From a virus: a stretch of 41,208 bases of DNA. Both the position numbers and the translations under genes were made by a program. The notes under the pieces were generated by a model. The model saw only the letters and a list, made by a program, of their open reading frames with translations. It ran no database searches and was not told the origin of the DNA. The stretch is from IMG/VR virus record IMGVR_UViG_3300005535_000011; one strand, 5' to 3'. Of this stretch, positions 3,691-35,973 are shown in pieces (the stretch's first letter is position 1; the number at the start of each line of letters is the position of its first letter).

Positions 3691-3879
3691 ATGCCGCCCG
3701 ACACCCTTTGGACAGGAAACCCCAATCTCGAAGTAAGCGTTACCCAAGGTAACGTCGCTTTTGATGATGCCTCTACGACATACGATTCATCGACGACATT
3801 CTATGATGGCGCGCCACAGTCCGAGCTGATACCTATTTACACACCTTCTAACACTCTTTGGACGGTGCAAACGGTATGA
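3691..3879 (+). CDS. hypothetical protein (62 aa)
   Basis: First ORF after promoter/leader box 3641..3673. Its stop overlaps the next start (ATGA). Confidence 0.45.
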   Translation: MPPDTLWTGNPNLEVSVTQGNVAFDDASTTYDSSTTFYDGAPQSELIPIYTPSNTLWTVQTV

Positions 3880-6061: not shown

Positions 6062-6070
6062 GGCTAGCGT

Positions 6071-7603: not shown

Positions 7604-7605
7604 CC

Positions 7606-7965
7606 ATGAATCCATTTAATGCCCCTTTTTCTCTACCATCAGTCGGCCCACCCACCTCAAACAATAGCCTAAGTGGTTGGCAGTTTCAGCCTTATCAGTT
7701 AAACTCTTCTGGAAATCTACCAGGAACAACCACTATCGGTATTAATGGCCAGGGCGTGCAAATATCCGGCCCTAATAGCTCGATTATTCTGTCTGACCCT
7801 ACAAGCCAGAACGCAACCATCTCACTTTTGGGTAAGAATGGCTATATTTTATTCACAAGCCCCACAACTAAGGTGAATCAAATGATAGCCGGTATACTGC
7901 CCGACGGAACGACTGGGATGGTGTCATCTAAAACAGGGATTGACGTTTTGTCAATATTCGCATGA
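7606..7965 (+). CDS. virion-module protein (119 aa)
   Basis: Starts 2 nt after the upstream stop. Its stop overlaps the next start (ATGA). Confidence 0.55.
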   Translation: MNPFNAPFSLPSVGPPTSNNSLSGWQFQPYQLNSSGNLPGTTTIGINGQGVQISGPNSSIILSDPTSQNATISLLGKNGYILFTSPTTKVNQMIAGILPDGTTGMVSSKTGIDVLSIFA

Positions 7966-8681
7966 GTCAGATAAGTAATGTCCAGAACATAAATTTTTCT
8001 ACCGCGTTCGCTATTGACAAAATATGCGGGGTGTTAAGCAATACGTTCACGGCTGGCGCGCCGACTCTGGGAGGTTATCTCTACCAGTACACTATCCCCC
8101 ATTCATTCACCCGTCCCACATTTTGCGACGCACTGTTTTCGAAGGATGGGACTAACTATGTGCCCAATGGACAGGCCGATACGAGCAACTCGTATAACAT
8201 ATATTCCGATTCTAGCAATATATACCTAATAACGACGGCTACAAGCGGGACCATTTACTACAAAGAAGTTTCCACGTGGATAGATGACTTTGATAATACC
8301 AACCCGCTTGTTTCACCAACATTTCAGACCACCCTTCCTACAAGTGATAATACCTACTTCGATAGCCGCAAGAACTACCAGAAGGTACTTCAACAAAATG
8401 TCGTGTCACTTAGCAGTCCTGGAGCGGGAATGGTTGGGACGTATACGGTTAACCACAATCTCGGTTACGTTCCAAACTATAAAATATTTTTTGAATCTCT
8501 TCCGGGTCAAGTATGGCCAAGCATCAGCGGCGGGGCGCAGGACATATGGTTTTACGATACGGCCCATCAGTACGAGTGCTACGGCGTTATAAATAGCACG
8601 ACGCTCACTATTTCGTATAGCTGTGGCGCATCGGCAGCAGCCAACTTCAGAGTGTGGTATAGGATTTATTATGACGCTTAG
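7962..8681 (+). CDS. virion-module protein (239 aa)
   Basis: ATGA-coupled to the upstream gene. Uninterrupted ORF. Confidence 0.55.
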   Translation: MSQISNVQNINFSTAFAIDKICGVLSNTFTAGAPTLGGYLYQYTIPHSFTRPTFCDALFSKDGTNYVPNGQADTSNSYNIYSDSSNIYLITTATSGTIYYKEVSTWIDDFDNTNPLVSPTFQTTLPTSDNTYFDSRKNYQKVLQQNVVSLSSPGAGMVGTYTVNHNLGYVPNYKIFFESLPGQVWPSISGGAQDIWFYDTAHQYECYGVINSTTLTISYSCGASAAANFRVWYRIYYDA

Positions 8682-9069
8682 CTACAGATACGACCAGTTA
8701 CGATTTTCGACCACAATTCCTAACTTTATCAATGTCGCGACTATTCCGGCCAGCCTAAGCATTAGTGGCACCTTGGCAGACGGTGGCTCCCAAAATTTTA
8801 CTGTCCAACCCTCTTTAACGACGTTTACAACCTTCGCCGATATCAAGTTCAAAAACAATAACACGGGTAACGCAACCTATCTTACAAATAGCGTAGCCAT
8901 TGATCCGATCTGGCAGTATGTGTCCACGGAGACAGTACAAAACTCCGTGACATTTGTAGGGAGCCTCATATCCATAGTCGTTTCGGTCACCAATAATACC
9001 GGAGCCCCGATCACGTTAGTAAACCAAACGTATAGCATCGAAGTTATAGAGTACCAACTACCGTTTTAA
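8671..9069 (+). CDS. virion-module protein (132 aa from ATG 8671)
   Basis: The ORF track start at 8623 is a non-ATG codon deep inside the upstream gene. In-frame ATG 8671 overlaps the upstream stop by 11 nt. Confidence 0.5.
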   Translation: MTLSYRYDQLRFSTTIPNFINVATIPASLSISGTLADGGSQNFTVQPSLTTFTTFADIKFKNNNTGNATYLTNSVAIDPIWQYVSTETVQNSVTFVGSLISIVVSVTNNTGAPITLVNQTYSIEVIEYQLPF

Positions 9070-9100
9070 TGATATAATAAAGAAAACGCGGAATGCGGTT
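9070..9100 (+). promoter_or_regulatory. Extended -10 promoter (TGaTATAAT, 9070..9078) + late leader box AAAACGCGGAATGCGGTT (9083..9100)
   Basis: 15 of the box's nucleotides (ACGCGGAATGCGGTT) are identical to the copy at 3659..3673. Confidence 0.55.
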
Positions 9101-9116
9101 GACTAAGAGGCTATAT

Positions 9117-10343
9117 ATGGCACCCTCAGCTCCCGCCGCGAATCCTACTACATCGAACACGAACATGCCATTTGGTGGCTTTGGGCAAGCCCAGGCCGAT
9201 TATGCCGCAGCTGGCAATATCTTAAACACGCTCCCCACTCAAGAGGCAAAGACGGCGCAGGTTAACCCGTCCGACACTTCAATTCTTCCGTCGATTAATC
9301 CTAGTTACTCCGTATTCAACGCGCCAACAGCCCAAACCATTAATGCAGGTACTTACGGCACTAATCTTACCGGCTATAATGCCGCTGTCCAGGGAGCCGA
9401 ACAGTCGTTAACAAGTTCGGAAAACAACATCTATAACCAGGCGCTAGGCCAATACCAGCAAAATGTTAATCAGTTTGGAAACCTGCCAAAGGTTTATCAG
9501 CAACTTGCCGAGCAATATGGTCTTCCGGGTTATCAGCAAAGCGTGAATACGCTTCAGAACCTCTTGCAGAACTTGAATCAGGACGTTAACGCGCAAACCA
9601 CCCTGGGCGGTGGATTAATGACGCAATCTGCTCGTGATGAAATGTACGCTAATGAGGCAAATCCACTCAATCTATCACTTTCTAGTGCCTCAAGGGCATA
9701 TGAAACGGGCCAAACGAACGTCAATAACCTCTTGGGCGCATATGAAACTGGTCTGCAAAACGCTCTGAAGCCGGAGGAGCTAAATATCTCTAACCTCCCC
9801 GAGCTATTCGGCCAGACAAACCAGGCCGCCCAGTCTGGATACGAGCAAGGTGCTACGTCGATTGAGAACACGATACAAAACCAGCAGGCGGCAGAACGCC
9901 TTAATATCGAGCGTCAACAGGCTGCTTCACAGGAAGCATATAACTCGGCCGCGATCAGAGAAATTAACGCCAACTATGGCAATGGCGGTAGTCTCTCTAG
10001 TGCGTTAAGCAGCGGACAGATTAAAGGCTTAGGACTTAAGGACGCCAAGGCAGGCGGCGCGGGCGGATACGCGTTTAATGTTGGCGGCGGTTCGGCGTCT
10101 GCCGGCACATGGGCTGCTACTAATAATGTCCCAATTAACGCGCTGCTTTCATACATGGCCCAGAATGGTGACCGCACGGCGCTTTCTGCACTGGGCGATA
10201 TTAATAACGCCGGTCAAGTGACGCAGAGCATCATTAATAAGTATCCTGCCTTATTCTGGGGCGGTGGAGGTAATTCAGGTCCGATAACACTTACCGGCTC
10301 GCTAGGTGGTTCCACTATGAGCTTACAAGGAGGCGGCCTATGA
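9117..10343 (+). CDS. Gln/Asn/Ala-rich protein, putative internal virion/ejection protein (408 aa)
   Basis: ATG 9117 has a GAGG 6 nt upstream. The track start ATG 9093 lies inside the conserved leader box, so I prefer 9117. Low-complexity Q/N-rich composition. Confidence 0.5.
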   Translation: MAPSAPAANPTTSNTNMPFGGFGQAQADYAAAGNILNTLPTQEAKTAQVNPSDTSILPSINPSYSVFNAPTAQTINAGTYGTNLTGYNAAVQGAEQSLTSSENNIYNQALGQYQQNVNQFGNLPKVYQQLAEQYGLPGYQQSVNTLQNLLQNLNQDVNAQTTLGGGLMTQSARDEMYANEANPLNLSLSSASRAYETGQTNVNNLLGAYETGLQNALKPEELNISNLPELFGQTNQAAQSGYEQGATSIENTIQNQQAAERLNIERQQAASQEAYNSAAIREINANYGNGGSLSSALSSGQIKGLGLKDAKAGGAGGYAFNVGGGSASAGTWAATNNVPINALLSYMAQNGDRTALSALGDINNAGQVTQSIINKYPALFWGGGGNSGPITLTGSLGGSTMSLQGGGL

Positions 10344-12421
10344 ATCCGGCAGATTTAGGCAGTGATTTTGCTAATTTTATTGGCAAGAATGGCAATTCAG
10401 GAGCTATTTACTACAATCCCTCTCAGGTTGCACCAGATGTACCAGGCCCTACCCCGCAGCAAACCAATGTGCCTGCCACCCACGGGCAGAGCGGAGTGCT
10501 GGGTTTCCTGGAGCGTAATGCACAGAATATTGGCGGTGTTTTGGGAGGAATAGCGGGCGAGCTAGTTAATCCGTTCGGCGGCGGCGTCGTCGGCGCTGGT
10601 GCTGGTAGCGCGCTGGGACAAGAGGTAAAAAATCTGACGACCGGAACGAAGACGAACCCCCTTGAGGAAGGCGCCATCGGTGCAGGAAGCGAGCTGGCTG
10701 GCCTCGGGTTAGGTAAGGCTGCGCAACTTGTAGGAAAAGGGGTAAAAAATGCCGCTCCCGATCTATTCAGGTCAGCATTTAATCTACCAAATAAACTGGC
10801 AGCACGTCTCAAGCCTCAAGAAACTGCTCAGAAAATGCTTGACTATGGAATAGGTGGCAAGTCCCTGAACGGTATGATCAAGACCTCTGAAGACGCTATG
10901 GATCAACTAGATAACCTTTACCGTCAATCTGTAAATGGGACAGACCCCATTAGCACCATACCTGTTATTCAGGCCGCAAAAAAGACTATGAACTCGCCTT
11001 ATACGCTAGAAATGACAGATGCTGACAAGCAAAAAGTGTCCGATGTACTTGATAGGCTTACCAAGAATCCGAATGGCAAGCTTGAGGTTGATTCCCAGGC
11101 GGCGGTTGACAATATGCGCGCCCTTCAAGAGGTAGGACACGGATTGCTAGCTAAGGGCGAAAATAAGTTAAACCCAAACCAGCGAGCATCTGAATTCGGA
11201 CAGACATACCTTGATGCTGCTGACGAATTCCAAAAGGCACTTGACCGATTAACGCCCAAGGCGAATATCGAGGCGCTTAAAACGCCCGAAAATATCGCAT
11301 CGCTGTCCTCAATATCCCCTAAGCTGGCAGAAGAGTTTAAAGGCGTTAAAGGCCCCCAGGAAATACGTACCCTCATGGCCCCCTTCCATAATTTGAGAAC
11401 CATGTCACAAATCACCTCGGCCACGCCACAAAAAACGGGCCTTCTGGCTAGCGCTTTAGGTGCTGCGGGCGGGTTTGGTGTGGGTGGCCCTATGGGCGCG
11501 GTAGCGGGTATGCTCGGCTCTCCTATTATCCAGGGCGCAGAGAATGCCGTCCGTGCCCCGCTTACTACGGGAGCGGCGAAGGTAGTGAATACCCTCAGTG
11601 GTGCGGGAAAAACGGCGAATAAACTGGTAGGTGATCTGAGTGCCGGTGATCTTGCTCGTATAGGCGTCTCACAAGGGGCCGGTCAAAGCGCTTCAGGCGT
11701 ATTTGGTAACAGTCCTCCCACATTACCTGGCGACGGCTCTAACGCCGGGGTTGCCGATCTGGTAGGAAGCTCTATTCAAAATACACTAGGCCCTCTTAAC
11801 GCGGCTAAAAACGGTTCCACGACTACAGGGCTAGGAGCTATTACCACGCCTGAAGAATTACAGAATGTTATTAACACGGTAGGCTACAAGGGACTGGAGG
11901 AGTATCTGGCAGTACAGCGTCAAGAGAGCCCGCAACTGACTGAGGCCCAACAAAAGGACTGGCTTGATAATCAGAACGCAATTAACGCAGTCTCCGATTT
12001 TGCAAGAATGTTTGACCAAGTTAAGGCATCTGGGGCGGTAGCTGGTGGCATTGAGGAATTAGGTACAAAAATACCAGGTATCCAAAATACCAAGAGCGAA
12101 TCTGCGCTCAAAGCATACGAAGATAACAAAGGTGACCTAGCTTCAAGTCTGGCACAAGTGCTTGGCGGGGGAAAAGGAAGCAAGGCACTCCTCACAGAGC
12201 TTAAGAGCGAACTACCCGATGTCAACGACAGTCCTCAAGCAGCCGCTATGAAACTTCACGTACTAGTACAGCGTCTTGGCGCAAATATGCATACTATCCT
12301 ATCCGCTCCAGCTACCAATACTCCGGGTCAGTTGGCCAATTTTAACGGTATGAATGTGCCAGGAACCGTGGGAATGCAACTGCCTGCCACACCTACGCAG
12401 GTTAACTTCGGAGGTGTCTAG
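10340..12421 (+). CDS. Gly/Ala-rich large virion protein, putative internal/ejection (or tape-measure-like) protein (693 aa)
   Basis: AAGGAGG RBS and ATGA overlap. Glycine-zipper-like stretches (GGVLGGIAGELVNPFGGGVVGAGAGSALG and ALGAAGGFGVGGPMGAVAGMLG). Confidence 0.5.
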   Translation: MNPADLGSDFANFIGKNGNSGAIYYNPSQVAPDVPGPTPQQTNVPATHGQSGVLGFLERNAQNIGGVLGGIAGELVNPFGGGVVGAGAGSALGQEVKNLTTGTKTNPLEEGAIGAGSELAGLGLGKAAQLVGKGVKNAAPDLFRSAFNLPNKLAARLKPQETAQKMLDYGIGGKSLNGMIKTSEDAMDQLDNLYRQSVNGTDPISTIPVIQAAKKTMNSPYTLEMTDADKQKVSDVLDRLTKNPNGKLEVDSQAAVDNMRALQEVGHGLLAKGENKLNPNQRASEFGQTYLDAADEFQKALDRLTPKANIEALKTPENIASLSSISPKLAEEFKGVKGPQEIRTLMAPFHNLRTMSQITSATPQKTGLLASALGAAGGFGVGGPMGAVAGMLGSPIIQGAENAVRAPLTTGAAKVVNTLSGAGKTANKLVGDLSAGDLARIGVSQGAGQSASGVFGNSPPTLPGDGSNAGVADLVGSSIQNTLGPLNAAKNGSTTTGLGAITTPEELQNVINTVGYKGLEEYLAVQRQESPQLTEAQQKDWLDNQNAINAVSDFARMFDQVKASGAVAGGIEELGTKIPGIQNTKSESALKAYEDNKGDLASSLAQVLGGGKGSKALLTELKSELPDVNDSPQAAAMKLHVLVQRLGANMHTILSAPATNTPGQLANFNGMNVPGTVGMQLPATPTQVNFGGV

Positions 12422-13717: not shown

Positions 13718-13931
13718 TGTATAGCTTGTCCTTAACCGCTGAATGTGTGAAAAGATAGTGTTTGTGACAGGTGGGACACTCCAAATAAGTATCCTCGGCC
13801 TTACTAAGCTCCAGGTTGATATTATGACAAGGAAGTTGAACCGTATAATGCTTCTGTTTTTCGCGCTGGTTATAGAACTCGTGAAAACGCTGCTTTATTA
13901 GGTCGGCATCGGTCAGCATTGAGTACGTCAT
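13710..13931 (-). CDS. hypothetical Cys/His-containing small protein (73 aa)
   Basis: ATGA-coupled to the groEL stop. Contains CH..(17)..CPTCH, a possible zinc ribbon. Confidence 0.55.
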   Translation of the reverse strand: MTYSMLTDADLIKQRFHEFYNQREKQKHYTVQLPCHNINLELSKAEDTYLECPTCHKHYLFTHSAVKDKLYNE

Positions 13932-15580
13932 ACCACGCTTGCTTCGTCGGTCTTCTCTTCGTCAGCAATAATCACACCAGAGGTAAGCAGGCTCATGGCC
14001 GCAGATGTGGCATTTTGAAGTGCTGAAATAGGTACTTTGACCGGGTCAATGACCCCGGAAGATATAAGCTCTTTGATAGTACCGTCTATTACGTCAACTC
14101 CGAGTGTGGAGCGCTCGCTCTCTTTGGGCCAGCTATAAGTTGCCTGCAAGAGGCGTTCAAGCATCTGCCCTGGTTCAAGGCCGCTGTTTTCCATGAGAGT
14201 TTTAAAAGGCCACTGCATTGCCTTTATCACAAGCTTATATCCGGCCACCACTTCTTCGGAGCCACTAACTTCGCCAAGGTGCTTCTCGAGTTCCCAGGAG
14301 GCCCGTAGTAGCGGTGTTTCGCCACCCGCAACAATACCCAACTCGTTAGCCGCCTTAATGGCACCTACAGCGTCAATCGCGCGCTCCTTTAGCTCTTTGG
14401 CCTCACCTTCACCGCGAGCACCCACGTTGATGATCGCAATACCTGAAGTTAGCTTGGCTATCCGTTCTTGCAAACGCTCAACTTCAAATTCAGACACGTT
14501 TTCTTTCTTAATCCGAGACTTGAGCAAATCGACACGTTTTTGGATATCGTCAGGATGGCCACCACCATTTACGATAGTCGTACTATCTTTGGAAGCGACG
14601 ACCTTTTGGGCGTGTCCAATATCCTTTTTGGTGAGGCCGCCTTCTTCGCCTACTTCTAGTGTACGTCCTGCGGCCCTAGATATGAACTGGCCGCCTACCG
14701 AGATAGCAATGTCTTCGAGACGTTCCTGTTGTTCGTCCCCAAAACTGGGTGCGCGTACAGCCAATAGATGTAGGCCTTTCATTTTATTGTGCAACAATAC
14801 CGCCAAGGCAACTTCTTTAACGTCCGGAGAAATAATAACGAGGTTGTCGTTTATGTCGAGTTCCATCATTGCCTCGAGTACCTTTTGGATGTCCGAACCG
14901 CTCGATAGGGTGTAATCGGTAACGAGTACGTTGGCGTTATCCACAGCCGCCTCATCAAATTCAGGATTGGTTAAAAAGTACCGGCTCAGGTAACCTTGGT
15001 CAACTTCCATACCGTCCTTGTATTCGGAATAGATGTAGTTTTGCTTGCTTTCCTCAACCGCGATAACAGCATCGTTACCGAGCTTGTCGAAGGCCTTGGC
15101 AACTTCGCCGCCAACCTTATCGTTTTGCGATGCAATGTTTGCCACTTCTAACTGTTGTTTGTTGGTCTTAATCGGTGTGGCGGCGCCTCTAAGGTACTCA
15201 ACAACCTGCTCCACGGCTTTCTCTACGCCACGGCGTAACATTTGAGCGTTATGTCCGGCCGCGACAAGCTTGCGACCCTCGGTAAATAGTGAGTTAGTAA
15301 GAATAGTGGCGGTGGTCGTGCCGTCGCCCGCCTCATCATTTGTCTGTTTAGCGGCCTCTTTGACGATTTCTTGCGCAGCTGCCACAAATGGGTCTTTGGG
15401 GTCGAGTTCCTTCGCAACGGTTACGCCATCGTGTACGACCCCGGGGGTTCCGAAAGGTCGTTTGAAGATTACGTTATGAGCGCGTGGTCCAAGGGTCGCG
15501 CCTACGGCTCGTTTCGCCTCTTCAACACCCTCTTTAATCTTTGCGTACGCATCTTCTTCAAATAATACTATCTTACTCAT
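13928..15580 (-). CDS. groEL: chaperonin GroEL (Cpn60), phage-encoded (550 aa)
   Basis: The translation is collinear with bacterial GroEL: TLGPRAHNV, the ATP-site motif EAGDGTTTATIL, IVAGGETPLLR and SALQNATSAAMSLLT. It lacks the C-terminal GGM tail (ends ..DEEKTDEASVV). Confidence 0.92.
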   Translation of the reverse strand: MSKIVLFEEDAYAKIKEGVEEAKRAVGATLGPRAHNVIFKRPFGTPGVVHDGVTVAKELDPKDPFVAAAQEIVKEAAKQTNDEAGDGTTTATILTNSLFTEGRKLVAAGHNAQMLRRGVEKAVEQVVEYLRGAATPIKTNKQQLEVANIASQNDKVGGEVAKAFDKLGNDAVIAVEESKQNYIYSEYKDGMEVDQGYLSRYFLTNPEFDEAAVDNANVLVTDYTLSSGSDIQKVLEAMMELDINDNLVIISPDVKEVALAVLLHNKMKGLHLLAVRAPSFGDEQQERLEDIAISVGGQFISRAAGRTLEVGEEGGLTKKDIGHAQKVVASKDSTTIVNGGGHPDDIQKRVDLLKSRIKKENVSEFEVERLQERIAKLTSGIAIINVGARGEGEAKELKERAIDAVGAIKAANELGIVAGGETPLLRASWELEKHLGEVSGSEEVVAGYKLVIKAMQWPFKTLMENSGLEPGQMLERLLQATYSWPKESERSTLGVDVIDGTIKELISSGVIDPVKVPISALQNATSAAMSLLTSGVIIADEEKTDEASVV

Positions 15581-15806: not shown

Positions 15807-16137
15807 ATATCTTCTCTTTCATATTCTCAAGCAGTCTATACACTTCGGAAACCTGCGTGACGCTTCCAATATGCATACCCTTGATGATGCTGTTTATGGT
15901 CGTGATAGCGGCTGCCGTTTTGTCGGTCTCTGCCTCGACTTCAAGCGGTATGCCCCTAAAGTTCGTGAGTACCTGGCCGCCTTCAAAGAAAAACTTCTCG
16001 GCCTGGTCTTTGCTTACCAGCAGAGCGTCTGGAAACCGATTGGGTTCGTTGGCCGTTCTGTAGGCTTCAACAAGGGCACCGATCACCTTCGGGTTTACGT
16101 CCTCATCGGACAGGGCAAGAAGAGATATCTTACTCAT
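15793..16137 (-). CDS. hypothetical protein inserted between groES and groEL (114 aa)
   Basis: 8-nt overlap with the groES stop. Uninterrupted ORF. Confidence 0.55.
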   Translation of the reverse strand: MSKISLLALSDEDVNPKVIGALVEAYRTANEPNRFPDALLVSKDQAEKFFFEGGQVLTNFRGIPLEVEAETDKTAAAITTINSIIKGMHIGSVTQVSEVYRLLENMKEKIYASI

Positions 16138-16426
16138 CGGCTTCTTCTACCTTAAAGAGCAGGTTTTCAAAATGAACAGCGATGTACTTTTTGACGCCCA
16201 GGGTCATGACAAAGTGGTTGTACTTCTTATAGGCGATCACGTCGTTAACCTTTGGGACGTGTTTTGCATCGTATGGCATCTTTGAGAGCGGGTCGCCAAC
16301 GGCGACGACTTTACCCACCTCGGGCGCATCTTCGGTGTCACCTTTTGGCATCTCGAAATTGCCAATCTTTTTATTAAGCGTGTGTGGCTTTAATATTACA
16401 TACCCCGGAAGAGGATTAAGGCGCAT
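16130..16426 (-). CDS. groES: co-chaperonin GroES (Cpn10)-like (98 aa)
   Basis: GroES pattern: MRLNPLPGYVILKP (M-x-[IL]-x-PL-x-x-x-V-[IL]-x-K), GKVVAVG, VNDVIAYKKY. First gene of the chaperonin operon, preceded by TGtTATAAT. Confidence 0.75.
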   Translation of the reverse strand: MRLNPLPGYVILKPHTLNKKIGNFEMPKGDTEDAPEVGKVVAVGDPLSKMPYDAKHVPKVNDVIAYKKYNHFVMTLGVKKYIAVHFENLLFKVEEADE

Positions 16427-19065: not shown

Positions 19066-19358
19066 TGTTTTACCTCGCTATTGGTAGGAGCGATGTCTTG
19101 AAGAAAAACTTTTAGAGTTCTGCCATCATCCTGCAAGTTGTAGGTGACATTAAATGGCTGGTCTTCCCCAATGGCAATTTCACTGGTTTTTCCGTCTGGT
19201 AGAAATTTAATTACCTCAAAACGGTTAACCACGTCTTTTCGGTTCTCCCTATCCTGCTTAATGAGCGCCATAATAGCGTCCAGAAGCGAGGGGGCACACA
19301 AACCATGCTCTGCTGTAACCTGAAACTCAATCTGCTTACGTAATCCTTCATCATCCAT
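19062..19358 (-). CDS. hypothetical protein (98 aa from ATG 19358; track start 19400)
   Basis: ATG 19358 (MDDEGL..) has GGAG about 10 nt upstream and overlaps the methyltransferase stop by 8 nt. ATG 19400 would overlap by 50 nt. Confidence 0.5.
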   Translation of the reverse strand: MDDEGLRKQIEFQVTAEHGLCAPSLLDAIMALIKQDRENRKDVVNRFEVIKFLPDGKTSEIAIGEDQPFNVTYNLQDDGRTLKVFLQDIAPTNSEVKQ

Positions 19359-19932
19359 TGGTTTTTTCTCCAAATACGGTTTGGGGCGTAAGTTCCACAT
19401 CCTGTGCTAACTCATTACCCCAATTATCCCAGCCACCTGATTCTTGGCGTGCAAATAGTTCAACACGCGGTACATCGCCCATGAGCCTTACTATTCTGTC
19501 ACGCACTTCCCCAGGTTTTTTTGAATGTTCCTCGATTGGCGACATGACAACTTGTGCCACAGAAGCATCGCAACGCTTAGGATTCCCCTTAACGCCAAGC
19601 AAGCATATTTCTGCGTTAGTTCGCGTCCACTGTCCCATGCCGAAGAAGGGTGTACCTGATTTTTTATTTGTCTTTACCCACGTGAAGGCTACGGTTTTAT
19701 ACTCAAACCCCCAGGCCTTTAGGGTGTACAAGGCTTCAGGCAGCATAGGATAGGTCGCCCACAGGAAAAGGGTTGCGTCATCTGCACTAATTGAACTAAC
19801 GGGCAAGTTGTATATGTCAACACTACGCATTGTTTTGTATTGTTGATTTTGTGCTCTACCGCCGTGCAAGCTTTTAAAAACAGTGTAGTTCCATGGCGGG
19901 TCAGCATAGATTATTTGATATTTTTTATTCAT
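19351..19932 (-). CDS. DNA N6-adenine methyltransferase, MT-A70 family (193 aa)
   Basis: Catalytic DPPW motif in IIYADPPWNY near the N-terminus. The size and downstream conserved blocks (LFLWAT, GxGxWTR) fit the phage MT-A70-like methylases. Confidence 0.8.
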   Translation of the reverse strand: MNKKYQIIYADPPWNYTVFKSLHGGRAQNQQYKTMRSVDIYNLPVSSISADDATLFLWATYPMLPEALYTLKAWGFEYKTVAFTWVKTNKKSGTPFFGMGQWTRTNAEICLLGVKGNPKRCDASVAQVVMSPIEEHSKKPGEVRDRIVRLMGDVPRVELFARQESGGWDNWGNELAQDVELTPQTVFGEKTNG

Positions 19933-20219
19933 TGTGTCTTTCCTTCCTGTTTGAGGTGGCGCAGACGCCGTTCGTTGTTATCGATAAACTTTTGCAACTT
20001 ACCTTTCCAGTTGGTACTGTCACTAAAGGTTTGGCCTCGGTAGTTATCTAAAGCGACGGCGTTGAGTTCATCCAGGCGCGCCGCGTTAGTTACGTCGTAA
20101 AAGAAAGTGGCCTCATCGTCAGAAATATCCATCTCCGAATCTTTACGGGTGAAGTAGTGCTGGCCTTTAACAAAGCCGAGTGAGGCCATCCAGGCTGCTA
20201 CTTTTTCTTGTTTGGTCAT
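19929..20219 (-). CDS. hypothetical protein (96 aa)
   Basis: 4-nt overlaps on both sides. Confidence 0.55.
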   Translation of the reverse strand: MTKQEKVAAWMASLGFVKGQHYFTRKDSEMDISDDEATFFYDVTNAARLDELNAVALDNYRGQTFSDSTNWKGKLQKFIDNNERRLRHLKQEGKTQ

Positions 20220-20497
20220 GACTCAACCTCTGGCAGATCAACCGTTGACCCTGCAAAGCCATGGGTACAATCGCCTAGAAACTCAATGCGACCCTCACGT
20301 ACAAACGAATGGCAGCGCTTATTTGTACCTGCTTCTATCCATTCAACGAGTACAGAGGGACTAAGCGTCGGGTGCTCGTAGTTGCCGTTGAACTCCCAAG
20401 TATTATCTACACCGTGGTATTCATTGCAGCCTGGACACATAAACATATGGCGGTAAAAGCTACCGTCAACATCGGTTGCATCTTTTATCTTACTCAT
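20216..20497 (-). CDS. Cys/His-rich phage protein (93 aa), DUF6527-like from memory
   Basis: The pattern CPGC..H...W.FNG....PT.SPS......CHSF...G.I.FL.DC.H recalls a conserved phage family. It needs an HMM check. Confidence 0.5.
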   Translation of the reverse strand: MSKIKDATDVDGSFYRHMFMCPGCNEYHGVDNTWEFNGNYEHPTLSPSVLVEWIEAGTNKRCHSFVREGRIEFLGDCTHGFAGSTVDLPEVES

Positions 20498-22365: not shown

Positions 22366-23505
22366 CTACTTCTTTTCAATACCAAGAAGCACCATCAACT
22401 CGTCAATCCAGCCCAAAACCTCTTTAGCTATGGGATTTGTTTCAGGTGTGTCTCCCTTACTAATACCCATAAAGTAAGCTTCAGCAGGTCGCTGAGAATC
22501 CGGTTCGATACCCTCTAGTTCTTTGTAGTCACATTTCCGTACGTTTGCAATCGTTCCGCATAGGCAGGCGCATTCGCCTTCGTATACCGAACCATCGACT
22601 TTACCGTCGATAACTGCCTGACGTAGTGCCGGAATCTCAGGTATAGCATGCAGCAGAATTTCCCATACGTCTGCTTTAATCGATAGGGCATTGCCGAACA
22701 CCCGAGCATTGCCGGACACCTCAGCATTGCCGAACACCCGAGCATTGCCGGACACCTCAGCATTGCCGAACACCCAAGCATTGCCGAACACCCGAGCATT
22801 GCCGGACACCTCAGCATTGCCGGACACCTCAGCATTGCCGGACACCTCAGCATCGCCGAACACCCGAGCATTGCCGGACACCTCAGCATCGCCGGACACC
22901 TCAGCATCGCCGGACACCCGAGCATCGCCGAACACCCAAGCATTGCCGAACACCTCAGCATCGCCGGACACCTCAGCATCGCCGGACACCCGAGCATTGC
23001 CGGACACCTCAGCATCGCCGAACACCCGAGCATTGCCGGACACCCAAGCATTGCCGAACACCCGAGCATTGCCGAACACCCAAGCATCGCCGAACACCCA
23101 AGCATTGCCGGACACCCGAGCATTGCCGGACACCCAAGCATTGCCGAACACCCGAGCATTGCCGGACACCTCAGCATCGCCGAACACCCGAGCATTGCCG
23201 GACACCTCAGCATCGCCGAACACCCGAGCATTGCCGGACACCTCAGCATCGCCGGACACCCGAGCATCGCCGGACACCTCAGCATCGCCGGACACCCAAG
23301 CATCGCCGGACACCTCAGCATCGCCGGACACCCAAGCATTGCCGAACACCCGAGCATTGCCGTTGCTTAATCTTTCACTCTCTACCCAACCGCCCTTATC
23401 GCCCTTTTTGACAGAACCGAAATCTGCGGTTGCCTCAATGCGAAAGAGCTTTTTACCTAGGAAGTTGATTTTTGTTTCGTCGGTGAGTTTAAATTTAAGA
23501 TTCAT
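22366..23505 (-). CDS. YdcK-like hexapeptide-repeat (left-handed beta-helix type) protein with Cys-rich C-terminal domain (379 aa)
   Basis: A 48-aa N-terminus (..ADFGSVKKGDKGGWVES..) is followed by 37 uninterrupted units G-[ND]-A-[REW]-V-[SF], then a 109-aa non-repeat tail containing CACLCG..(8)..C. The architecture recalls E. coli YdcK-type proteins (from memory). Confidence 0.7.
   Translation of the reverse strand: MNLKFKLTDETKINFLGKKLFRIEATADFGSVKKGDKGGWVESERLSNGNARVFGNAWVSGDAEVSGDAWVSGDAEVSGDARVSGDAEVSGNARVFGDAEVSGNARVFGDAEVSGNARVFGNAWVSGNARVSGNAWVFGDAWVFGNARVFGNAWVSGNARVFGDAEVSGNARVSGDAEVSGDAEVFGNAWVFGDARVSGDAEVSGDAEVSGNARVFGDAEVSGNAEVSGNAEVSGNARVFGNAWVFGNAEVSGNARVFGNAEVSGNARVFGNALSIKADVWEILLHAIPEIPALRQAVIDGKVDGSVYEGECACLCGTIANVRKCDYKELEGIEPDSQRPAEAYFMGISKGDTPETNPIAKEVLGWIDELMVLLGIEKK
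22696..23361 (-). repeat. Tandem 18-bp repeat array, 37 units (666 bp), inside CDS 22366..23505
   Basis: Plus-strand unit G[A/G]ACAC[CCG/CTC/CCA]AGCAT[T/C]GCC. As far as I can read, the other 14 positions are invariant in all 37 units. All three frames on both strands are open across it. Confidence 0.95.
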
Positions 23506-23566
23506 GATTTACCTTTCAAGTATTAGAATTATTGCTCGCGCCGTTATGAATATTAATTGGGAATTA

Positions 23567-23758
23567 TCATTGAATCCCCCCAACCACGAAGTACCAGATA
23601 CCAAAAAGCCAGTACATACCGAGTGCAGCGGCTACGAAGCTTACAAACAGGTATAGTCCGAATAAAATCACCAAAACCTTAACAGCTTTTGATACGGTAT
23701 GCTTCAGTATGCTATTGAAGTCGCCCAGTGTTTCTGCTAAGGTTTTGAAGTCGTACAT
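23567..23758 (-). CDS. small membrane protein (63 aa)
   Basis: Two hydrophobic helices (VKVLVILFGLYLFVSFVAAAL and MYWLFGIWYFVVGG). Confidence 0.55.
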   Translation of the reverse strand: MYDFKTLAETLGDFNSILKHTVSKAVKVLVILFGLYLFVSFVAAALGMYWLFGIWYFVVGGIQ

Positions 23759-29028: not shown

Positions 29029-29457
29029 ATGGTATGCGCAAGATGCAATCAAAAAGCCTCGCACATATTCTCTGATGAACGAGGTGAGCGGTGCGAAAAC
29101 TGTTCGTCTATGTCTATCGTCAGCAAGAATAAGACGGATGGCATACTCACTCGTACCTCATGGCGCATAAGACGCCAGCAATCCAGGCACGAGGGAGATA
29201 TGGTACTTCCCCACTCCTACGATAAGACAAAGCACCGCGAGGTTGTAAATCCTGACTTCGTTAAGCTCTACCCCGACAAGGTTAAAGATTTCTTCAGTGG
29301 CGACCAGCTAAAAAAGGATGGCTACAGTAAAATGCCTGACGCTATTGCTAAGAACGAAGCCAAGCGAGAGAGACAGCGCGACGAGTTCAAAGCCGATACC
29401 ATTTATTCCGGAAGCTCAGAAAAGGCGATGGCCAAGTTTTTGAAGGATGAGGCATGA
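29029..29457 (+). CDS. zinc-ribbon protein (142 aa from ATG 29029)
   Basis: CARC..(16)..CENC near the N-terminus. ATG 29029 lies 1 nt after the upstream stop. The track start at 28993 overlaps the upstream gene. Confidence 0.55.
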   Translation: MVCARCNQKASHIFSDERGERCENCSSMSIVSKNKTDGILTRTSWRIRRQQSRHEGDMVLPHSYDKTKHREVVNPDFVKLYPDKVKDFFSGDQLKKDGYSKMPDAIAKNEAKRERQRDEFKADTIYSGSSEKAMAKFLKDEA

Positions 29458-29876
29458 TCTTACAAGACCCACACGATGCCTTGCACGCCAGATGCGAGCC
29501 CGTCACCTTCCCCGAGGCAAAGCGTATCGCTAAAACATTGCGCGACGCTTATCAGGAAGTATCCAAAAAGGCCAAAGACACCCTCGTAGTAGGATTGGCC
29601 GCGCCCCAGATTGGCATTCCAAAGCGTATGTTTGCTATGTATGGCATAGTGTTTATCAACCCCAGCTTTACGGCGCATGGCCCGAAACTGGTTGATAGCG
29701 CTGAGGGATGCTTAAGCCTGCCCGATACCTACCACCCAAAGCGCTATGACACGATTTTGGCTACGTGGACAGATGAAGCACGTAGATTACGACGCGAACT
29801 ATTGGAAGGTAGGGATGCGGTTGTGTTCCAACATGAATTTGACCATTTGGAGGGAAGATTGTGCAATGAGTTATAG
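29454..29876 (+). CDS. def: peptide deformylase (140 aa)
   Basis: All three PDF motifs are present: VGLAAPQIG (GxGxAAxQ), EGCLS and QHEFDHLEG (HExxH). Confidence 0.88.
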   Translation: MILQDPHDALHARCEPVTFPEAKRIAKTLRDAYQEVSKKAKDTLVVGLAAPQIGIPKRMFAMYGIVFINPSFTAHGPKLVDSAEGCLSLPDTYHPKRYDTILATWTDEARRLRRELLEGRDAVVFQHEFDHLEGRLCNEL

Positions 29877-33837: not shown

Positions 33838-35973
33838 ATGGACCCGATCATTACTCCTATTGACTTCTATCCAGAGGTGCCGTCATTCAATACGGCACGA
33901 AATGATGAAGTTACCGACTTTACACCGCGCTATCAGCTACCACTATCTGACGCTGATATGTATTCCCTTATCCAACAAAAGCGCCAGGCCGCCCGGGACT
34001 TTCGCGACTCAACGGTTAAATGGGATGAGCGCCGTGCTCGGAACCGTGACTATTGGCGCGGCAGGCACTATTCGCAGGATACGGGTATGCCGGATGAGGC
34101 CTACTACTCGGGCTACATTGACCCAATGATTTACGAGAATGCCGAAACACGTTTCAAGCTGGCGTCGCAACGTATGCCAGATATCATAGTCACGGCCCAC
34201 GATGACAATAACCTAGCGCTTGAATCAGCTAACGTCGTCGAGCAATTCCTGCGCAAGAAAGTCGGTAACAAAGTCACCCAACGTATGCTTAAGAATGGGC
34301 TACGCCAACGAGAGATTAACTTTACGGCAGCAGTTAAATGTATTTGGAATCCTAATCTGTCTAGCGGAAACGGTGACTTTACTTACTATCTTGTCAATCC
34401 GTCAAGGCTTATCCTAGACCCCACCGCCATTTATCCCGACGATGGCTACACCGCCGATAACATGGAATTTATCGGCGAAATTCTCGAGGAGCCTGTTGAA
34501 ATGATCTATGCCAAGTTCCCAAACAAGGCGACCCAACTTAAGCAAATGATCGAACTAAGCGCCATTAATGGCCTCGGTCGCCCCTCAAAGCTTAAATACG
34601 AAGAGTGGTGGCTCCGCTACTACAAGAATGGCCAGACATACGAGGGCACGGTCTGGCTTTACCAAACACTCATCCTAGGACAGCAGCGAAATCCCTATTA
34701 CGATTGGGAGGGCTATAAAGTGTACAAGCCTCGCGTCGAAAAGGACGGGAGCTACAAGACAACGGCCACACTCGATTCTGAAACGAGGTTTTATAACTAC
34801 TTCGAAATACCGCGCAAGCCGTACATATTCCTTACGTATCAGAACCTTGGCGAAAGCCCGTATGATGACACGACGGCTATTGAACAGGCTATCCCAACTC
34901 AGCGTCTTGTAAACCGCACAGGGAGACAGATTGTTGAGATATCTGCAAATGCAGTTCCTAAAAAGGTATTCGGCAACCTTATTACTAAAGAAGATGCACG
35001 CCGCATTTCTAACGACCCTGACGAGTCTATCTGGCTTGACGCGCCTGACGTATCCAAAGCGATGACCTGGATACAAGCTAATCCGCCTGCGCCTGAGCTA
35101 TTTAATCTGCTCACCTACGCAGGTCAGCGAATGGATGGTATCTTTAACACCCACGGCCCCATTAAAGGACAAGAAGCTGCAAATGACGAATCGGGTATTG
35201 CCAAGCAAATTACTCGCGAGGGCGACCTTACATCCTCTGATGACTTGGTAGACATCGTTGTGGAGCGGGTCATATTTGAAATGGCTGGTTGGGCTATGCA
35301 AATGGCTAAAATGTTCTACGATGAGCCCCACTTCATAAAGCTTACTGGCGAATCGGGTACGATCATGACCCGCGAGCTTACCAAGAAAGATTTCCGCGAC
35401 GGTATCGAGGTAGATGTTAAGGCTAATTCGGTTGACGCCGCAACAAATCGTGCCGATGCTCTAAACATGATGAGCCGCAAGGCCATTGACCCGCTCACCG
35501 CCTTCGAGGATATGGACAAACCAAACGCCAAGGAACGTGTGCGCCGTTGGATAGCATTTATGAACGGAGCTAACGACGGTTATGCATCATACCTGAAGGA
35601 GCTGGGCATTGATCTTGAGAGTACAAGCAACATGCAACCGCCGTTTACGCCAGGTGGTGACCAAACTGAGGCCGCAGATCAGGCGCAAAAGGATATTACC
35701 CAAATGACGCAGGGTACTATCATTGCTCCACCTGACAAATTCGACCAAACGTACGTTGCTGCGTTTGTCAGCTTCATACGATCGGGCCAATTCCAGAGCC
35801 TACCACAAGATATTAAGAAGAATTTCCGCGACTTCGTACAGCAACTCTCCCAGAATTTCCAGAACTTCCAAGTAAATACACCGGGCTCGGCATTTAACCA
35901 AGGGCCGGTAGTGGGTACGCCTCAAATGGCAGGAGTGCCGGCTACGCCACCAGCTTTACCAGGAGGACAATAG
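33838..35973 (+). CDS. putative portal protein (711 aa)
   Basis: Largest ORF between terminase and scaffold/capsid, GAGG RBS, size in the portal range. Called by position and size only. Confidence 0.55.
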   Translation: MDPIITPIDFYPEVPSFNTARNDEVTDFTPRYQLPLSDADMYSLIQQKRQAARDFRDSTVKWDERRARNRDYWRGRHYSQDTGMPDEAYYSGYIDPMIYENAETRFKLASQRMPDIIVTAHDDNNLALESANVVEQFLRKKVGNKVTQRMLKNGLRQREINFTAAVKCIWNPNLSSGNGDFTYYLVNPSRLILDPTAIYPDDGYTADNMEFIGEILEEPVEMIYAKFPNKATQLKQMIELSAINGLGRPSKLKYEEWWLRYYKNGQTYEGTVWLYQTLILGQQRNPYYDWEGYKVYKPRVEKDGSYKTTATLDSETRFYNYFEIPRKPYIFLTYQNLGESPYDDTTAIEQAIPTQRLVNRTGRQIVEISANAVPKKVFGNLITKEDARRISNDPDESIWLDAPDVSKAMTWIQANPPAPELFNLLTYAGQRMDGIFNTHGPIKGQEAANDESGIAKQITREGDLTSSDDLVDIVVERVIFEMAGWAMQMAKMFYDEPHFIKLTGESGTIMTRELTKKDFRDGIEVDVKANSVDAATNRADALNMMSRKAIDPLTAFEDMDKPNAKERVRRWIAFMNGANDGYASYLKELGIDLESTSNMQPPFTPGGDQTEAADQAQKDITQMTQGTIIAPPDKFDQTYVAAFVSFIRSGQFQSLPQDIKKNFRDFVQQLSQNFQNFQVNTPGSAFNQGPVVGTPQMAGVPATPPALPGGQ

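What the first reader, a model, noticed from the sequence alone, without database searches (positions are those of the whole stretch)
22366..23505. 37-unit hexapeptide array with variation confined to 4 of 18 nucleotides and no synonymous drift, fused to a Cys-rich C-terminal domain
Units are GGC-[A/G]AT-GCT-[CGG/GAG/TGG]-GTG-T[T/C]C, giving G-[N/D]-A-[R/E/W]-V-[F/S]. As read, every other nucleotide, including all synonymous third positions, is identical in all 37 units. 10 of the 12 possible N/D x R/E/W x F/S combinations occur (NRF x10, DES x10, NES x4, NWS x3, NWF x3, others 1-2). In an LbH-type beta-helix the variable residues would be the outward-facing positions, so the array is a long prism with a combinatorially patterned charged/aromatic surface. 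Zero synonymous divergence implies very recent expansion or ongoing homogenisation and recombination, and predicts length and pattern polymorphism between isolates. The N-terminal 48 aa and the repeat style recall E. coli YdcK-like proteins of unknown function. The 109-aa tail (CACLCG...C) is a separate domain. The gene sits in the early leftward arm, so it more likely acts inside the host (a decoy or a mimic?) than as a virion part (speculation).
Basis: partly seen in the sequence, partly recalled or inferred. Interest (0 to 1): 0.65.

Follow-up and report, generated by a model that had tools for sequence, protein, structure and literature searches.

The report
Phage rod protein with shuffling repeats
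An early phage gene encodes a rod-shaped repeat protein whose 37 near-identical 18-base units differ at only four bases, are gained and lost between otherwise identical phages, and end in an uncharacterised domain that is usually attached to a different kind of repeat rod; its function is unknown.

Summary
Window 22366-23505 (minus strand) is a 379-aa ORF with 37 in-frame 18-nt units. Only unit positions 4, 10, 11 and 17 vary, and all 111 Gly/Ala/Val codons are identical.

It is a YdcK-type beta-solenoid (PF18836; PDB 2F9C). It belongs to a large family of early phage proteins of unknown function, including Sfi19 orf229.

1. The pattern is shared across the family. In 82 arrays the same four positions are polymorphic (pi 0.42-0.52). 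Fourfold sites are uniform within an array (pi about 0.06) but differ between arrays (0.55). This is concerted evolution, with diversity kept at three outward-facing residues. Near-identical copies of this phage from other samples carry at least four array alleles (37 units, 13 units and two partial ones). They differ only by whole units, and several assemblies break inside the array.

2. The 109-aa tail is a separate, confidently folded domain with no Pfam, PDB or BFVD relative. About 1000 clusters carry it, nearly always fused to pentapeptide-repeat rods, and those arrays are homogenised in the same way.

The array dynamics are well supported. The function (an accessory early host-directed protein) is inferred. 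DGR, virion-part and acyltransferase readings are rejected.

The parts
22366..23505 (-). Complete gene: 379-aa early phage protein made of an N-cap, a 37-unit beta-solenoid array and a C-terminal domain
   Evidence: ORF list. PHROG 7964 and 5070, both of unknown function, at E 1e-99 and 1e-96. 3602 homologues. The same gene is called in the JGI record Ga0070683_100000189.
23511..23516 (-). Shine-Dalgarno-like GAAAGG, 5 nt upstream of the ATG
   Evidence: Read directly from the sequence. Function is inferred only.
23362..23505 (-). N-terminal cap, aa 1-48 (MNLKFKLTDETKINFLGKKLFRIEATADFGSVKKGDKGGWVESERLSN), homologous to the N-terminus of YdcK
   Evidence: It aligns to YdcK 2F9C residues 27-50 and to NCBIfam YdcK_fam positions 25 onward. 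G35, G38 and G39 are invariant in the family alignment A2. It is 100 % identical in nucleotides to the cap in L001.
22696..23361 (-). Array of 37 x 18 nt encoding G-[N/D]-A-[R/E/W]-V-[F/S]; only unit nucleotides 4, 10, 11 and 17 vary
   Evidence: PF18836 YdcK beta-solenoid repeat, 12 stretches. The AF2 model shows one 4-residue strand per hexad. The array differs by whole units in other samples.
22369..22695 (-). C-terminal 109-aa domain (it begins with a partial 38th unit, G-N-A). It is five-helix with a conserved loop G-x3-G-S-x-Y-x-G-E-C-A-C-L-x-G-T and a second motif R-P-x-E-x-F-F...G-D-T-P
   Evidence: 86 homologues and 986 representative clusters. Invariant residues are G31, G35, Y38, G40, C42, C44, L45, G47, E72, F75, G81 and P84. 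AF2 gives pLDDT 92 and pTM 0.85. There is no Pfam or NCBIfam hit, no PDB sequence hit and no Foldseek hit in PDB or BFVD.
22515..23357 (-). Spurious 280-aa ORF in another frame of the array. The 321-aa ORF at 22691-23656 on the plus strand is of the same kind. Neither is a gene.
   Evidence: Both translate to periodic low-complexity peptides (MLGCSAMLGC..., ALPNTRALPDTS...), which arise only because the repeat contains no stop codons.

Best explanation
The gene encodes a cytoplasmic early accessory phage protein made of three modules.

1. A 48-aa YdcK-type cap.
2. A YdcK-type beta-solenoid with one short strand per hexapeptide. The alanines and valines are buried. N/D sits at the turn, and R/E/W and F/S face outward.
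3. A 109-aa helical domain that is an independent, horizontally exchanged module. In most other proteins it sits on a pentapeptide-repeat rod instead.

The DNA array behaves as a coding minisatellite. Whole 18-nt units are gained and lost in frame by slipped-strand mispairing or unequal recombination between identical units. This keeps every position uniform within an array, including synonymous positions (concerted evolution), and it shuffles the few polymorphic sites into mosaic units. Polymorphism survives only at four first or second codon positions, which encode three exposed or turn residues. The same four positions stay polymorphic in nearly every related array, while the synonymous sites of the same codons do not. 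Diversity at those residues is therefore kept by selection and is not left over from neutral drift.

What is shown: the anatomy, the homology, the allelic unit indels, and the diversity pattern across the sampled family.

What is inferred:
- the recombination mechanism;
- selection for surface heterogeneity;
- that the rod is a length-variable scaffold or binding surface which presents the conserved C-terminal domain to a host target early in infection;
- the accessory, host-takeover or anti-defence role.
For: YdcK-type solenoid and cap: PF18836 129.9 bits, YdcK_fam 110.8 bits, PDB 2F9C at E 2.5e-13, best Foldseek hit 2PIG (E 0.012, probability 0.8), and a strand/turn periodicity of 6.

Allelic variation:
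- L001 (ENA k141_4393712, 40797 bp) is 99.79-99.89 % identical over 19 kb.
- Its cap (144 nt) and C-domain (330 nt) are 100 % identical, yet it has 13 units, equal to window units 1-5, 8-10 and 33-37.
- Contigs from JGI 3300025913 and 3300009093 carry units 1-5 and 8-12 and then diverge from each other (NW.. against D..).
- No allele shows a point change.
- At least four other assemblies of this phage end inside the array.

Pattern across 82 arrays from 80 IMG/VR loci, L001 and the window:
- Columns 4, 10, 11 and 17 vary in 80, 82, 77 and 81 arrays.
- Mean within-array pi is 0.45, 0.52, 0.42 and 0.51 at those columns.
- It is 0.05-0.06 at the fourfold sites and 0.05-0.09 at the third positions of the variable codons themselves.
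- Between-array difference at fourfold sites is 0.55 (Ala GCA 32, GCT 22, GCG 21, GCC 7; Val GTG 41, GTC 25, GTT 14).

C-domain as a separate mobile module:
- 986 clusters, always C-terminal, mostly on pentapeptide repeats.
- It is 72 % identical in a phage whose GroEL is only 27 % identical.
- Hexapeptide partners are rare but recur: P0011, P0070, P0121, P0163, P0207 and P0337.
- The pentapeptide arrays fused to it are homogenised in the same way, with 15-nt units 83-97 % identical and variation at nt 4, 10, 11, 13 and 14.

Early and accessory:
- In the window and L001 the gene lies between a Sak4-like AAA_24 gene plus HNH and small ORFs.
- Relatives sit next to PDDEXK/NinG, AAA_24/HNH or ERF.
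- Sfi19 orf229 lies between cro and gam/sak4.
- It is present in only 3 phages among about 160 S. thermophilus phage records that share those flanks.
Against: - No reads were available, so the exact unit number and order in the window, and in L001, rest on short-read assemblies. The longest internal exact repeat is 76 nt, so an assembler with k above 76 could resolve the array, but a path that mixes variants from a mixed population is possible.
- The full-length model has only moderate confidence (pLDDT 69.6, pTM 0.46). No coordinates were available, so handedness and surface exposure were not measured.
- A structural reason for keeping the diversity was not found. Across arrays there is no signal at lag 3, the expected stacking distance (like-charge z = 0.9, opposite-charge z = -0.2). 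There is only weak avoidance of identical neighbours (z = -2.9).
- The 80 loci are the best tblastn matches to this protein, so 'family-wide' means the sampled part of the family.
- Some cultured-phage arrays are less uniform (Sfi19: 8 variable columns, pi(Ala) 0.37) and have the same length in three isolates.
- Nothing tested here shows what the protein binds or does. PADLOC, Pfam, NCBIfam, PDB and the literature searches gave no functional lead.
Confidence: 0.7

Rival explanations
1. Neutral recent expansion. The array was amplified very recently from two or three founder units (NRF, DES, NW-) and the four variable sites are simply the founders' differences. There is no selection for diversity.
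For: There is strong within-unit linkage of N-R-F and D-E-S. The region also shows partial period-2 alternation (lag 1 opposite-charge pairs 17 against 11.3 expected). All allelic differences are whole-unit indels.
Against: The same four nucleotide positions are polymorphic in 77-82 of 82 arrays. The fixed synonymous codons of those arrays have diverged from one another (0.55 between arrays), while synonymous sites inside each array are uniform (0.05-0.06). Independent neutral founder effects would not pick the same four sites every time, and would leave synonymous founder differences just as often.
Confidence: 0.12
2. Assembly artefact. The 37-unit array, or its unit order, is an expansion, collapse or chimeric path produced by a short-read metagenome assembler.
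For: Four or more other assemblies of the same phage break inside the array. One 40.7-kb contig starts and ends in it. Many IMG/VR contigs of relatives also end in their arrays.
Against: The longest exact internal repeat is 76 nt, shorter than usual large k values and read lengths. Assemblers do not make codons uniform. The L001 junctions must exist as 141-mers in reads (inferred from the k141 contig name). Sanger-era cultured phages such as Sfi19 have the same kind of array. The array keeps the reading frame and sits between cap and C-domain sequences that are identical in two samples.
Confidence: 0.07
3. DNA mimic or decoy. The solenoid imitates DNA, as the pentapeptide-repeat proteins Qnr and MfpA do for gyrase. 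It blocks a host DNA-binding enzyme or defence system, and the C-domain provides dimerisation or targeting. This is a hypothesis about function and is compatible with the array dynamics described above.
For: The C-domain's usual partner is a pentapeptide-repeat rod, a fold documented as a DNA mimic that binds gyrase (PMC10886550). The gene sits in an early position beside cro, gam and recombination genes. Its distribution is that of an accessory gene. The array is net negative: R14 against E15 plus D15.
Against: Across the family, position 4 is mostly R (503) and W (424), with E only 185, so the surfaces are not generally acidic. Many pentapeptide partners have only 3-10 repeats, too short for a duplex mimic. 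The NCBIfam Qnr models score far below their cut-offs. There was no anti-defence or defence hit.
Confidence: 0.15
4. Targeted hypermutation. A diversity-generating retroelement or a similar system writes the variation at the four positions.
For: Variation is confined to defined codon positions of exposed residues, and N/D/S/Y-type residues are typical of DGR targets (established knowledge).
Against: No reverse-transcriptase or any other Pfam domain was found in the ten large unannotated ORFs. There is no second (template) copy of the repeat in the window. In AAT/GAT only the first A varies and the second never does. Other variable sites are C/G/T and T/C, so the pattern is not adenine-specific.
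Confidence: 0.02
5. Virion or cytoskeletal part: a tail-fibre or baseplate beta-helix, or a bactofilin-like polymer that organises phage replication.
For: There are weak PHROG hits to tail-fibre and baseplate families (E 5e-9 to 1e-5). Pfam Bactofilin scores 47.6 bits, above its 27.9 cut-off.
Against: The structural hits cover only the repeats. The gene lies in the early leftward block, away from the terminase and head genes at 30-39 kb. The best-scoring families are PHROG 7964 and 5070, of unknown function. Both ends of the solenoid are capped by globular modules, which argues against end-to-end polymerisation (inference). The gene is absent from most S. thermophilus phages that have the same virion type.
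Confidence: 0.04

Closest known systems
YdcK family (Pfam PF18836 B_solenoid_ydck; NCBIfam NF040481; PDB 2F9C/2PIG, Salmonella YdcK, function unknown)
   Same: The N-terminal cap motif (..RI.A..DF..VK.G..GGW.E) and the G-[ND]-A-x-V-x hexapeptide solenoid are the same. It is the only PDB relative by sequence (E 2.5e-13) and the best by fold.
   Different: YdcK is a chromosomal protein of about 326 aa whose repeats are degenerate even at the protein level (alignment). The phage protein scores 110.8 bits against the 350-bit equivalog cut-off. It has nucleotide-identical units and a different C-terminal domain.
Phage family PHROG 7964/5070 (for example S. thermophilus phage Sfi19 orf229, Ruminococcus phage phiRM10 gp34, Mycobacterium phage Boilgate gp64); all hypothetical proteins
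   Same: The cap, the repeat type, the early genomic position and the array dynamics are the same.
   Different: Most members end in a different C-terminal module (DY..G...TTFFR....V.CGCF.GT..FR..V..THG). That module shares only a 14-column CxCxxGT motif with the window's C-domain (hhalign probability 4 %).
Pentapeptide-repeat proteins (PF00805; Qnr, MfpA, AlbG), and the unnamed subfamily 'MKFEIKHRWTG... + A[DN]LXX repeats + this C-domain'
   Same: They have the same C-terminal domain (up to 77 % identity) and the same early prophage or phage context. Their solenoid arrays are also homogenised at the nucleotide level, with variation only at outward residues.
   Different: Their rod is a four-sided pentapeptide helix with another N-cap. 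The window protein has the three-sided hexapeptide rod. Qnr and MfpA lack this C-domain, and the Qnr models score far below their cut-offs.
TAL-effector repeats (repeat-variable diresidues) and other coding minisatellites that evolve in concert (established knowledge, not tested here)
   Same: They work alike at the DNA level. Units are near-identical in nucleotides, variation is confined to a few defined residues, and unit number and order change by recombination.
   Different: There is no sequence or fold relationship. The units are 6 aa, not 34. No ligand code is known here, and no order signal was found in the arrays.
Left-handed beta-helix acyltransferases (PF00132; LpxA, LpxD, GlmU)
   Same: They share the hexapeptide periodicity and probably the prism-like fold. 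NCBIfam hits are weak (LpxA 27 bits).
   Different: Scores are far below the cut-offs (231-292 bits). There is no PF00132 hit for the window protein and no catalytic domain or motif. Database names such as 'acetyltransferase-like' or 'glycerol kinase' on relatives are not supported.

Membership tests
YdcK beta-solenoid repeat domain (Pfam PF18836) | Score above the Pfam gathering threshold for the repeat | tested here: met
   129.9 bits against a cut-off of 30, 12 stretches, E 3e-39.
YdcK family protein, equivalog (NCBIfam NF040481) | Whole-protein score of at least 350 bits, full-length match to the 326-position model | tested here: not met
   110.8 bits. Only model positions 25-129 are matched in the best stretch, and the C-terminal third is a different domain.
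YdcK family | N-terminal cap homologous to YdcK residues about 25-50 | tested here: met
   phmmer aligns residues 21-45 (frieatadfgsvkkgdkggwves) to 2F9C residues 27-50, E 2.5e-13.
Bactofilin (PF04519) | Domain score above threshold | tested here: met
   47.6 bits against 27.9. The hit overlaps the much stronger PF18836 hit and covers repeats only.
Bactofilin (PF04519) | Free beta-helix ends that allow head-to-head or tail-to-tail polymerisation; right-handed helix | not testable with these tools
Both ends carry globular modules, which argues against polymerisation by inference only.
Hexapeptide-repeat acyltransferases (PF00132 / LpxA-like) | PF00132 hit and family-level score; catalytic residues at a trimer interface | tested here: not met
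   PF00132 is not among the Pfam hits. NCBIfam LpxA, LpxD and GlmU score 18-29 bits against cut-offs of 207-292.
Diversity-generating retroelement target | Nearby reverse transcriptase, a template repeat, and adenine-specific substitutions | tested here: not met
   No RT domain in the large ORFs. No second copy of the repeat. The substitutions are not adenine-specific.
Unnamed C-terminal domain family (found here; 986 clusters) | Invariant residues G31, G35, Y38, G40, C42, C44, L45, G47, E72, F75, G81, P84; position at the C-terminus after a solenoid | tested here: met
   All are present in the window protein (alignment A1). The domain is at the C-terminus in all 150 listed hits.
Pentapeptide-repeat proteins (PF00805) | A[DN]LXX repeats | tested here: not met
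   There is no PF00805 hit for the window protein. Only its C-domain relatives carry these repeats.
CRISPR array (the annotation given to relatives' arrays in Vibrio phage records) | Repeats separated by unique spacers, non-coding | tested here: not met
   The units are contiguous with no spacers and lie in frame inside an ORF.
Known anti-phage defence or candidate systems (PADLOC-DB) | Any model hit | tested here: not met
   No family at E <= 0.01 for the protein, its C-domain or two relatives.

The most novel reading that the evidence does not exclude
Phage solenoid rods, both the hexapeptide and the pentapeptide kind, may form a class of evolvable recognition surfaces. A uniform scaffold would carry 'repeat-variable residues' (N/D, R/W/Q/E/K, S/Y/F, a set resembling an antibody binding site). 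Unit recombination would reshuffle these quickly to track a variable host target or to escape a host sensor, and the conserved C-terminal domain of new fold would act as the effector. This would be a TALE-like or VLR-like diversification strategy in phage early genes that needs no dedicated mutagenic enzyme.
Probability: 0.12. Interest if true: 0.85.

Novelty: new variant of a known kind. Interest (0 to 1): 0.6.

Why it matters
This family is common. It has thousands of homologues and appears in cultured phages of Streptococcus, Mycobacterium, Vibrio, Xanthomonas and Liberibacter, yet no function is known.

This analysis adds three testable points:
- Its arrays are among the most strictly homogenised coding repeats in phage genomes, and they keep diversity at three exposed residues. 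That is a signature of selection on a surface.
- Array length and order differ between phages that are otherwise 99.8 % identical. These genes are therefore fast strain markers, and they regularly cause broken metagenomic phage assemblies and false CRISPR calls.
- An uncharacterised, confidently folded domain with an invariant C-x-C loop is exchanged between two unrelated rod types. This points to the domain, not the rod, as the functional part, and it gives a clear target for biochemistry.

If the protein proves to be an anti-defence or host-takeover factor, the length-variable rod would be a new design principle for such factors.

Tried and rejected
- **Stacking selection.** I tested whether unit order favours opposite charges or avoids like charges at lag 3, the rung-to-rung distance. 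There was no signal across 81 arrays (z = 0.9 and -0.2), only weak avoidance of identical neighbours (z = -2.9). In the window the signal has period 2, not 3.
- **Homology between the window's C-domain and the family's usual C-module.** hhalign aligns only 14 columns around CxCxxGT, probability 4 %. This remains unproven.
- **Fold of the C-domain.** Foldseek against PDB and BFVD gave nothing below E = 1. Profile and sequence searches of PDB, Pfam and NCBIfam hit only the pentapeptide parts of relatives.
- **DGR.** Rejected.
- **Defence or anti-defence models.** No PADLOC hit.
- **The JGI name 'Atl1 flippase' on relative P0070.** Pfam does not support it.
- **More alleles by exact DNA pattern.** Searches in IMG/VR, GTDB genomes and JGI metagenome contigs gave 0 hits. 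Alleles were found through exact neighbouring proteins instead.
- **Host and closest phage.** There was no megablast hit. tblastn of the 465-aa ORF at 592-1989, which has no family hit and no assigned function, found nothing in 50,697 phage records. The major head protein has no relative in 185k genomes. The host remains unknown.
- **Promoter and terminator scan of 21.9-24.5 kb.** Counts were within the range of the shuffles.
- **Literature.** Six searches found no study of the family's function.
Full report
**1. The observation**

The minus-strand ORF at 22366..23505 encodes 379 aa. A script cut the region from gene nt 145 into 18-nt units and found 37 consecutive units (window 22696-23361), followed by a partial unit GGCAATGCC.
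- Fourteen of the 18 columns are invariant in all 37 units.
- Column 4 is A/G, column 10 is G/C/T, column 11 is G/A and column 17 is C/T.
- Codon 4 of the unit is only CGG, GAG or TGG.
- Tandem Repeats Finder gives period 18, 37.5 copies and score 881, with nothing comparable elsewhere in the window.
- A degenerate pattern hits only inside the array, against no hits in the shuffles.
- Against the codon usage of 16 long ORFs of the window, the uniform GGC/GCT/GTG codons have a probability of about 1e-65.

One refinement is needed. The variable residues are linked: N with R with F, and D with E with S (p = 0.003-0.015). The sequence tends to alternate with period 2. The array therefore looks like a recombinant mosaic of two or three founder units, not a free combinatorial library.

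**2. What the protein is**

Pfam gives PF18836 (YdcK beta-solenoid repeat) at 129.9 bits and a weaker Bactofilin hit. NCBIfam YdcK_fam matches the cap and repeats at 110.8 bits, far below its 350-bit equivalog cut-off. The only PDB sequence relative is Salmonella YdcK (2F9C/2PIG), E 2.5e-13, and the alignment includes the N-terminal cap.

An AF2 model of the full protein reaches pLDDT 69.6 overall, 70-78 in mid-array and 83-97 in the tail. It has one 4-residue strand (A-x-V-[S/F]) and a 2-residue turn (G-[N/D]) per hexad. Its best Foldseek hit is YdcK, and that hit is weak (E 0.012). By strand alternation the R/E/W and F/S positions point outward.

The best PHROG families are 7964 and 5070, both of unknown function. 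The large protein database holds 3602 homologues. IMG/VR holds at least 556 loci, and 89 cultured-phage records carry a relative. These include S. thermophilus Sfi19 orf229, Ruminococcus phiRM10 gp34, Mycobacterium Boilgate gp64, and Vibrio, Xanthomonas, Edwardsiella and Liberibacter phages.

**3. Polymorphism between copies of the same phage**

The window is JGI contig Ga0070683_100000189. An ENA contig (L001, 40,797 bp) is 99.79-99.89 % identical over 19 kb. Its cap and tail coding sequences are identical, but its array has 13 units, equal to window units 1-5, 8-10 and 33-37.

Two JGI contigs from other samples carry units 1-5 and 8-12. They then differ from each other at the next unit before the contig ends. 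That makes at least four alleles. All can be derived from one another by whole-unit indels, and none has a point substitution.

Several assemblies stop inside the array. One 40.7-kb contig begins and ends in it. This is what within-sample heterogeneity would produce.

The longest exact repeat inside the window's array is 76 nt, so the 37-unit path can be resolved with long k-mers. Without reads, however, its exact length and order remain unverified.

**4. The pattern is shared across the sampled family**

I extracted arrays of 10-37 units from the 80 IMG/VR loci, L001 and the window.
- Columns 4, 10, 11 and 17 are variable in 80, 82, 77 and 81 of the 82 arrays. Every other column is variable in 8-39 arrays, usually through single deviant units.
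- Mean within-array diversity is 0.42-0.52 at the four columns. It is 0.05-0.06 at the fourfold sites of Gly, Ala and Val, and 0.05-0.09 at the third positions of the variable codons themselves.
- Between arrays the fixed fourfold bases differ in 55 % of comparisons (Ala GCA 32, GCT 22, GCG 21, GCC 7).

Synonymous substitutions therefore do occur and then sweep through a whole array, which is concerted evolution. The same three residues stay polymorphic in lineage after lineage. Neutral founder effects cannot explain this. It calls for selection that keeps diversity at those residues, or that repeatedly restores it.

I tested the most obvious structural reason, charge complementarity between stacked rungs at lag 3, and found no signal. 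The reason for the selection remains open.

Two caveats apply. The 80 loci are the best matches to this protein. Some cultured-phage arrays, such as Sfi19, are less uniform and have the same length in three isolates.

**5. The C-terminal domain**

The 109-aa tail has 86 close homologues and 986 representative clusters at E <= 1e-3. It is always C-terminal. In nearly all cases it follows a different N-cap (MKFEIKHRWTG..) and pentapeptide repeats.

Hexapeptide partners are rare but recur: P0011, P0070, P0121, P0163, P0207 and P0337.

Twelve residues are invariant, including Y38, C42, C44 and E72 and the G-D-T-P turn. Only two of the window's four cysteines are conserved.

AF2 with this alignment gives pLDDT 92 and pTM 0.85, a five-helix domain. 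Foldseek finds nothing in PDB or BFVD. There is no Pfam, NCBIfam or PDB sequence match.

The domain is 72 % identical in a phage whose GroEL is 27 % identical to the window's and which shares nothing else with it. So it is a mobile module.

The pentapeptide arrays attached to it in bacterial genomes (34 loci across many phyla) behave like the hexapeptide arrays. Up to 35 units of 15 nt are 83-97 % identical, and variation is confined to the first or second codon positions of the outward residues.

**6. Context and likely role**

In the window the gene follows a DUF3268 gene, a Sak4-like AAA_24 gene, an HNH gene and a 63-aa hydrophobic ORF on the leftward strand. Small ORFs, BubE, MT-A70, Cpn10 and GroEL come after it.

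Relatives sit beside PDDEXK/NinG, AAA_24/HNH or ERF. Sfi19 orf229 lies between cro and gam/sak4. It is present in only three phages (5 records) of about 160 S. thermophilus phage records that share those flanks. This marks it as an accessory early gene.

The protein has no signal peptide or hydrophobic segment (read directly).

I therefore infer a cytoplasmic, host-directed accessory function, with the C-domain as the conserved functional part and the rod as a length-variable scaffold or surface. The adjacent single-strand-annealing recombinases could plausibly drive unit gain and loss, but this was not tested.

**7. Rejected readings**

- DGR: no RT, no template copy, and substitutions that are not adenine-specific.
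- Acyltransferase: no PF00132 hit, and scores far below the cut-offs.
- Virion part: the tail-family hits cover repeats only, the gene is in the early region, and it is dispensable in Sfi19-like phages.
- CRISPR array: this is how some Vibrio phage records annotate the repeats, but the units are contiguous and coding.
- DNA mimicry: still possible through the link to pentapeptide repeats (PMC10886550). It is not favoured by the R/W-rich surfaces across the family.

**8. Verdict**

The gene is a member of a known but uncharacterised phage family, with a rare domain combination. What is new is the concerted-evolution pattern with retained diversity across the sampled family, its recurrence in pentapeptide rods, and the shared C-terminal domain of new fold. 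Function is still unknown.

Noticed in passing
L082-L115 (for example L084 with 32 units, L104 with 35 units, L082 with 14 units varying only at nt 4 and 14): Pentapeptide-repeat arrays fused to the same C-terminal domain in bacterial genomes of many phyla are also homogenised at the nucleotide level. Their 15-nt units are 83-97 % identical, and variation sits only at codon positions of the outward residues. Ordinary pentapeptide-repeat proteins are not known for this.
   Followed up: partly
L117 (Vibrio phage 1.034.O, MG592418.1 39761-40081); also MG592419 and MG592579: In the deposited Vibrio phage records the hexapeptide array inside the homologous gene is annotated as five 'CRISPR spacers'. 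This is a mis-annotation caused by the coding tandem repeat.
   Followed up: partly
L119/L123 (JGI Ga0105240_10001438), L122, L124, L120; also IMG/VR loci L002, L010, L022, L030, L048, L065, L068, L069, L075: Metagenomic contigs of this phage and of relatives often end inside the array. One 40.7-kb contig starts and ends in it, so the circular genome was cut there by the assembler.
   Followed up: partly
window 13928-15580 (-) and 16130-16426 (-): The phage encodes a full-length GroEL (PHROG 5725, E 1.5e-115) and a weak Cpn10-like protein. An unrelated phage that carries the pentapeptide version of the C-domain protein also encodes a Cpn60 (L127).
   Followed up: no
window 29454-29876 (+), 19351-19932 (-), 20216-20497 (-): Peptide deformylase, an MT-A70 methyltransferase and a BubE-family protein are called in the near-identical contig L001 (Pfam precomputed hits).
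   Followed up: no
window 592-12421 (+) and 33838-35973 (+): Seven large ORFs (410-711 aa), presumably virion proteins, have no PHROG or Pfam hit. The window has no megablast hit, and the 592-1989 ORF has no tblastn match in 50,697 phage records. The major head protein has no relative in 185k bacterial genomes. This is a poorly sampled phage lineage with an unknown host.
   Followed up: partly
L116 (Sfi19 NC_000871.1 27188-27877): Sfi19 orf229, a family member, sits between cro and a Gam-like gene and about 1.3 kb downstream of AcrIIA6. It is present in only Sfi19, Sfi18 and CHPC919 among about 160 S. thermophilus phage records that share the flanks. It would make a tractable model for testing function.
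   Followed up: partly
window 22369-22695 (-) compared with the C-modules of P0006, P0012, P0056 and others: The two alternative C-terminal modules of the family both contain a C-x-C-[LF]-x-G-T-[IL] motif (CACLCGTIA against CGCFYGTLA). Profile comparison does not support homology (probability 4 %). This could be convergence or very distant common ancestry.
   Followed up: partly
window 23567-23758 (-): The 63-aa ORF immediately upstream has a strongly hydrophobic C-terminal half (LVILFGLYLFVSFVAAALGMYWLFGIWYFVVGG) and no PHROG hit. It is conserved exactly in at least nine contigs of this phage.
   Followed up: no
P0003-P0004, P0019, P0026, P0043 (about 590-640 aa): Long cellular or phage proteins combine PF18836 repeats with PF25087, PF25084 and PF00132 left-handed beta-helix domains. 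One JGI protein (P0015) fuses a ClpP protease domain to the repeats. The solenoid is therefore used in several other architectures.
   Followed up: no
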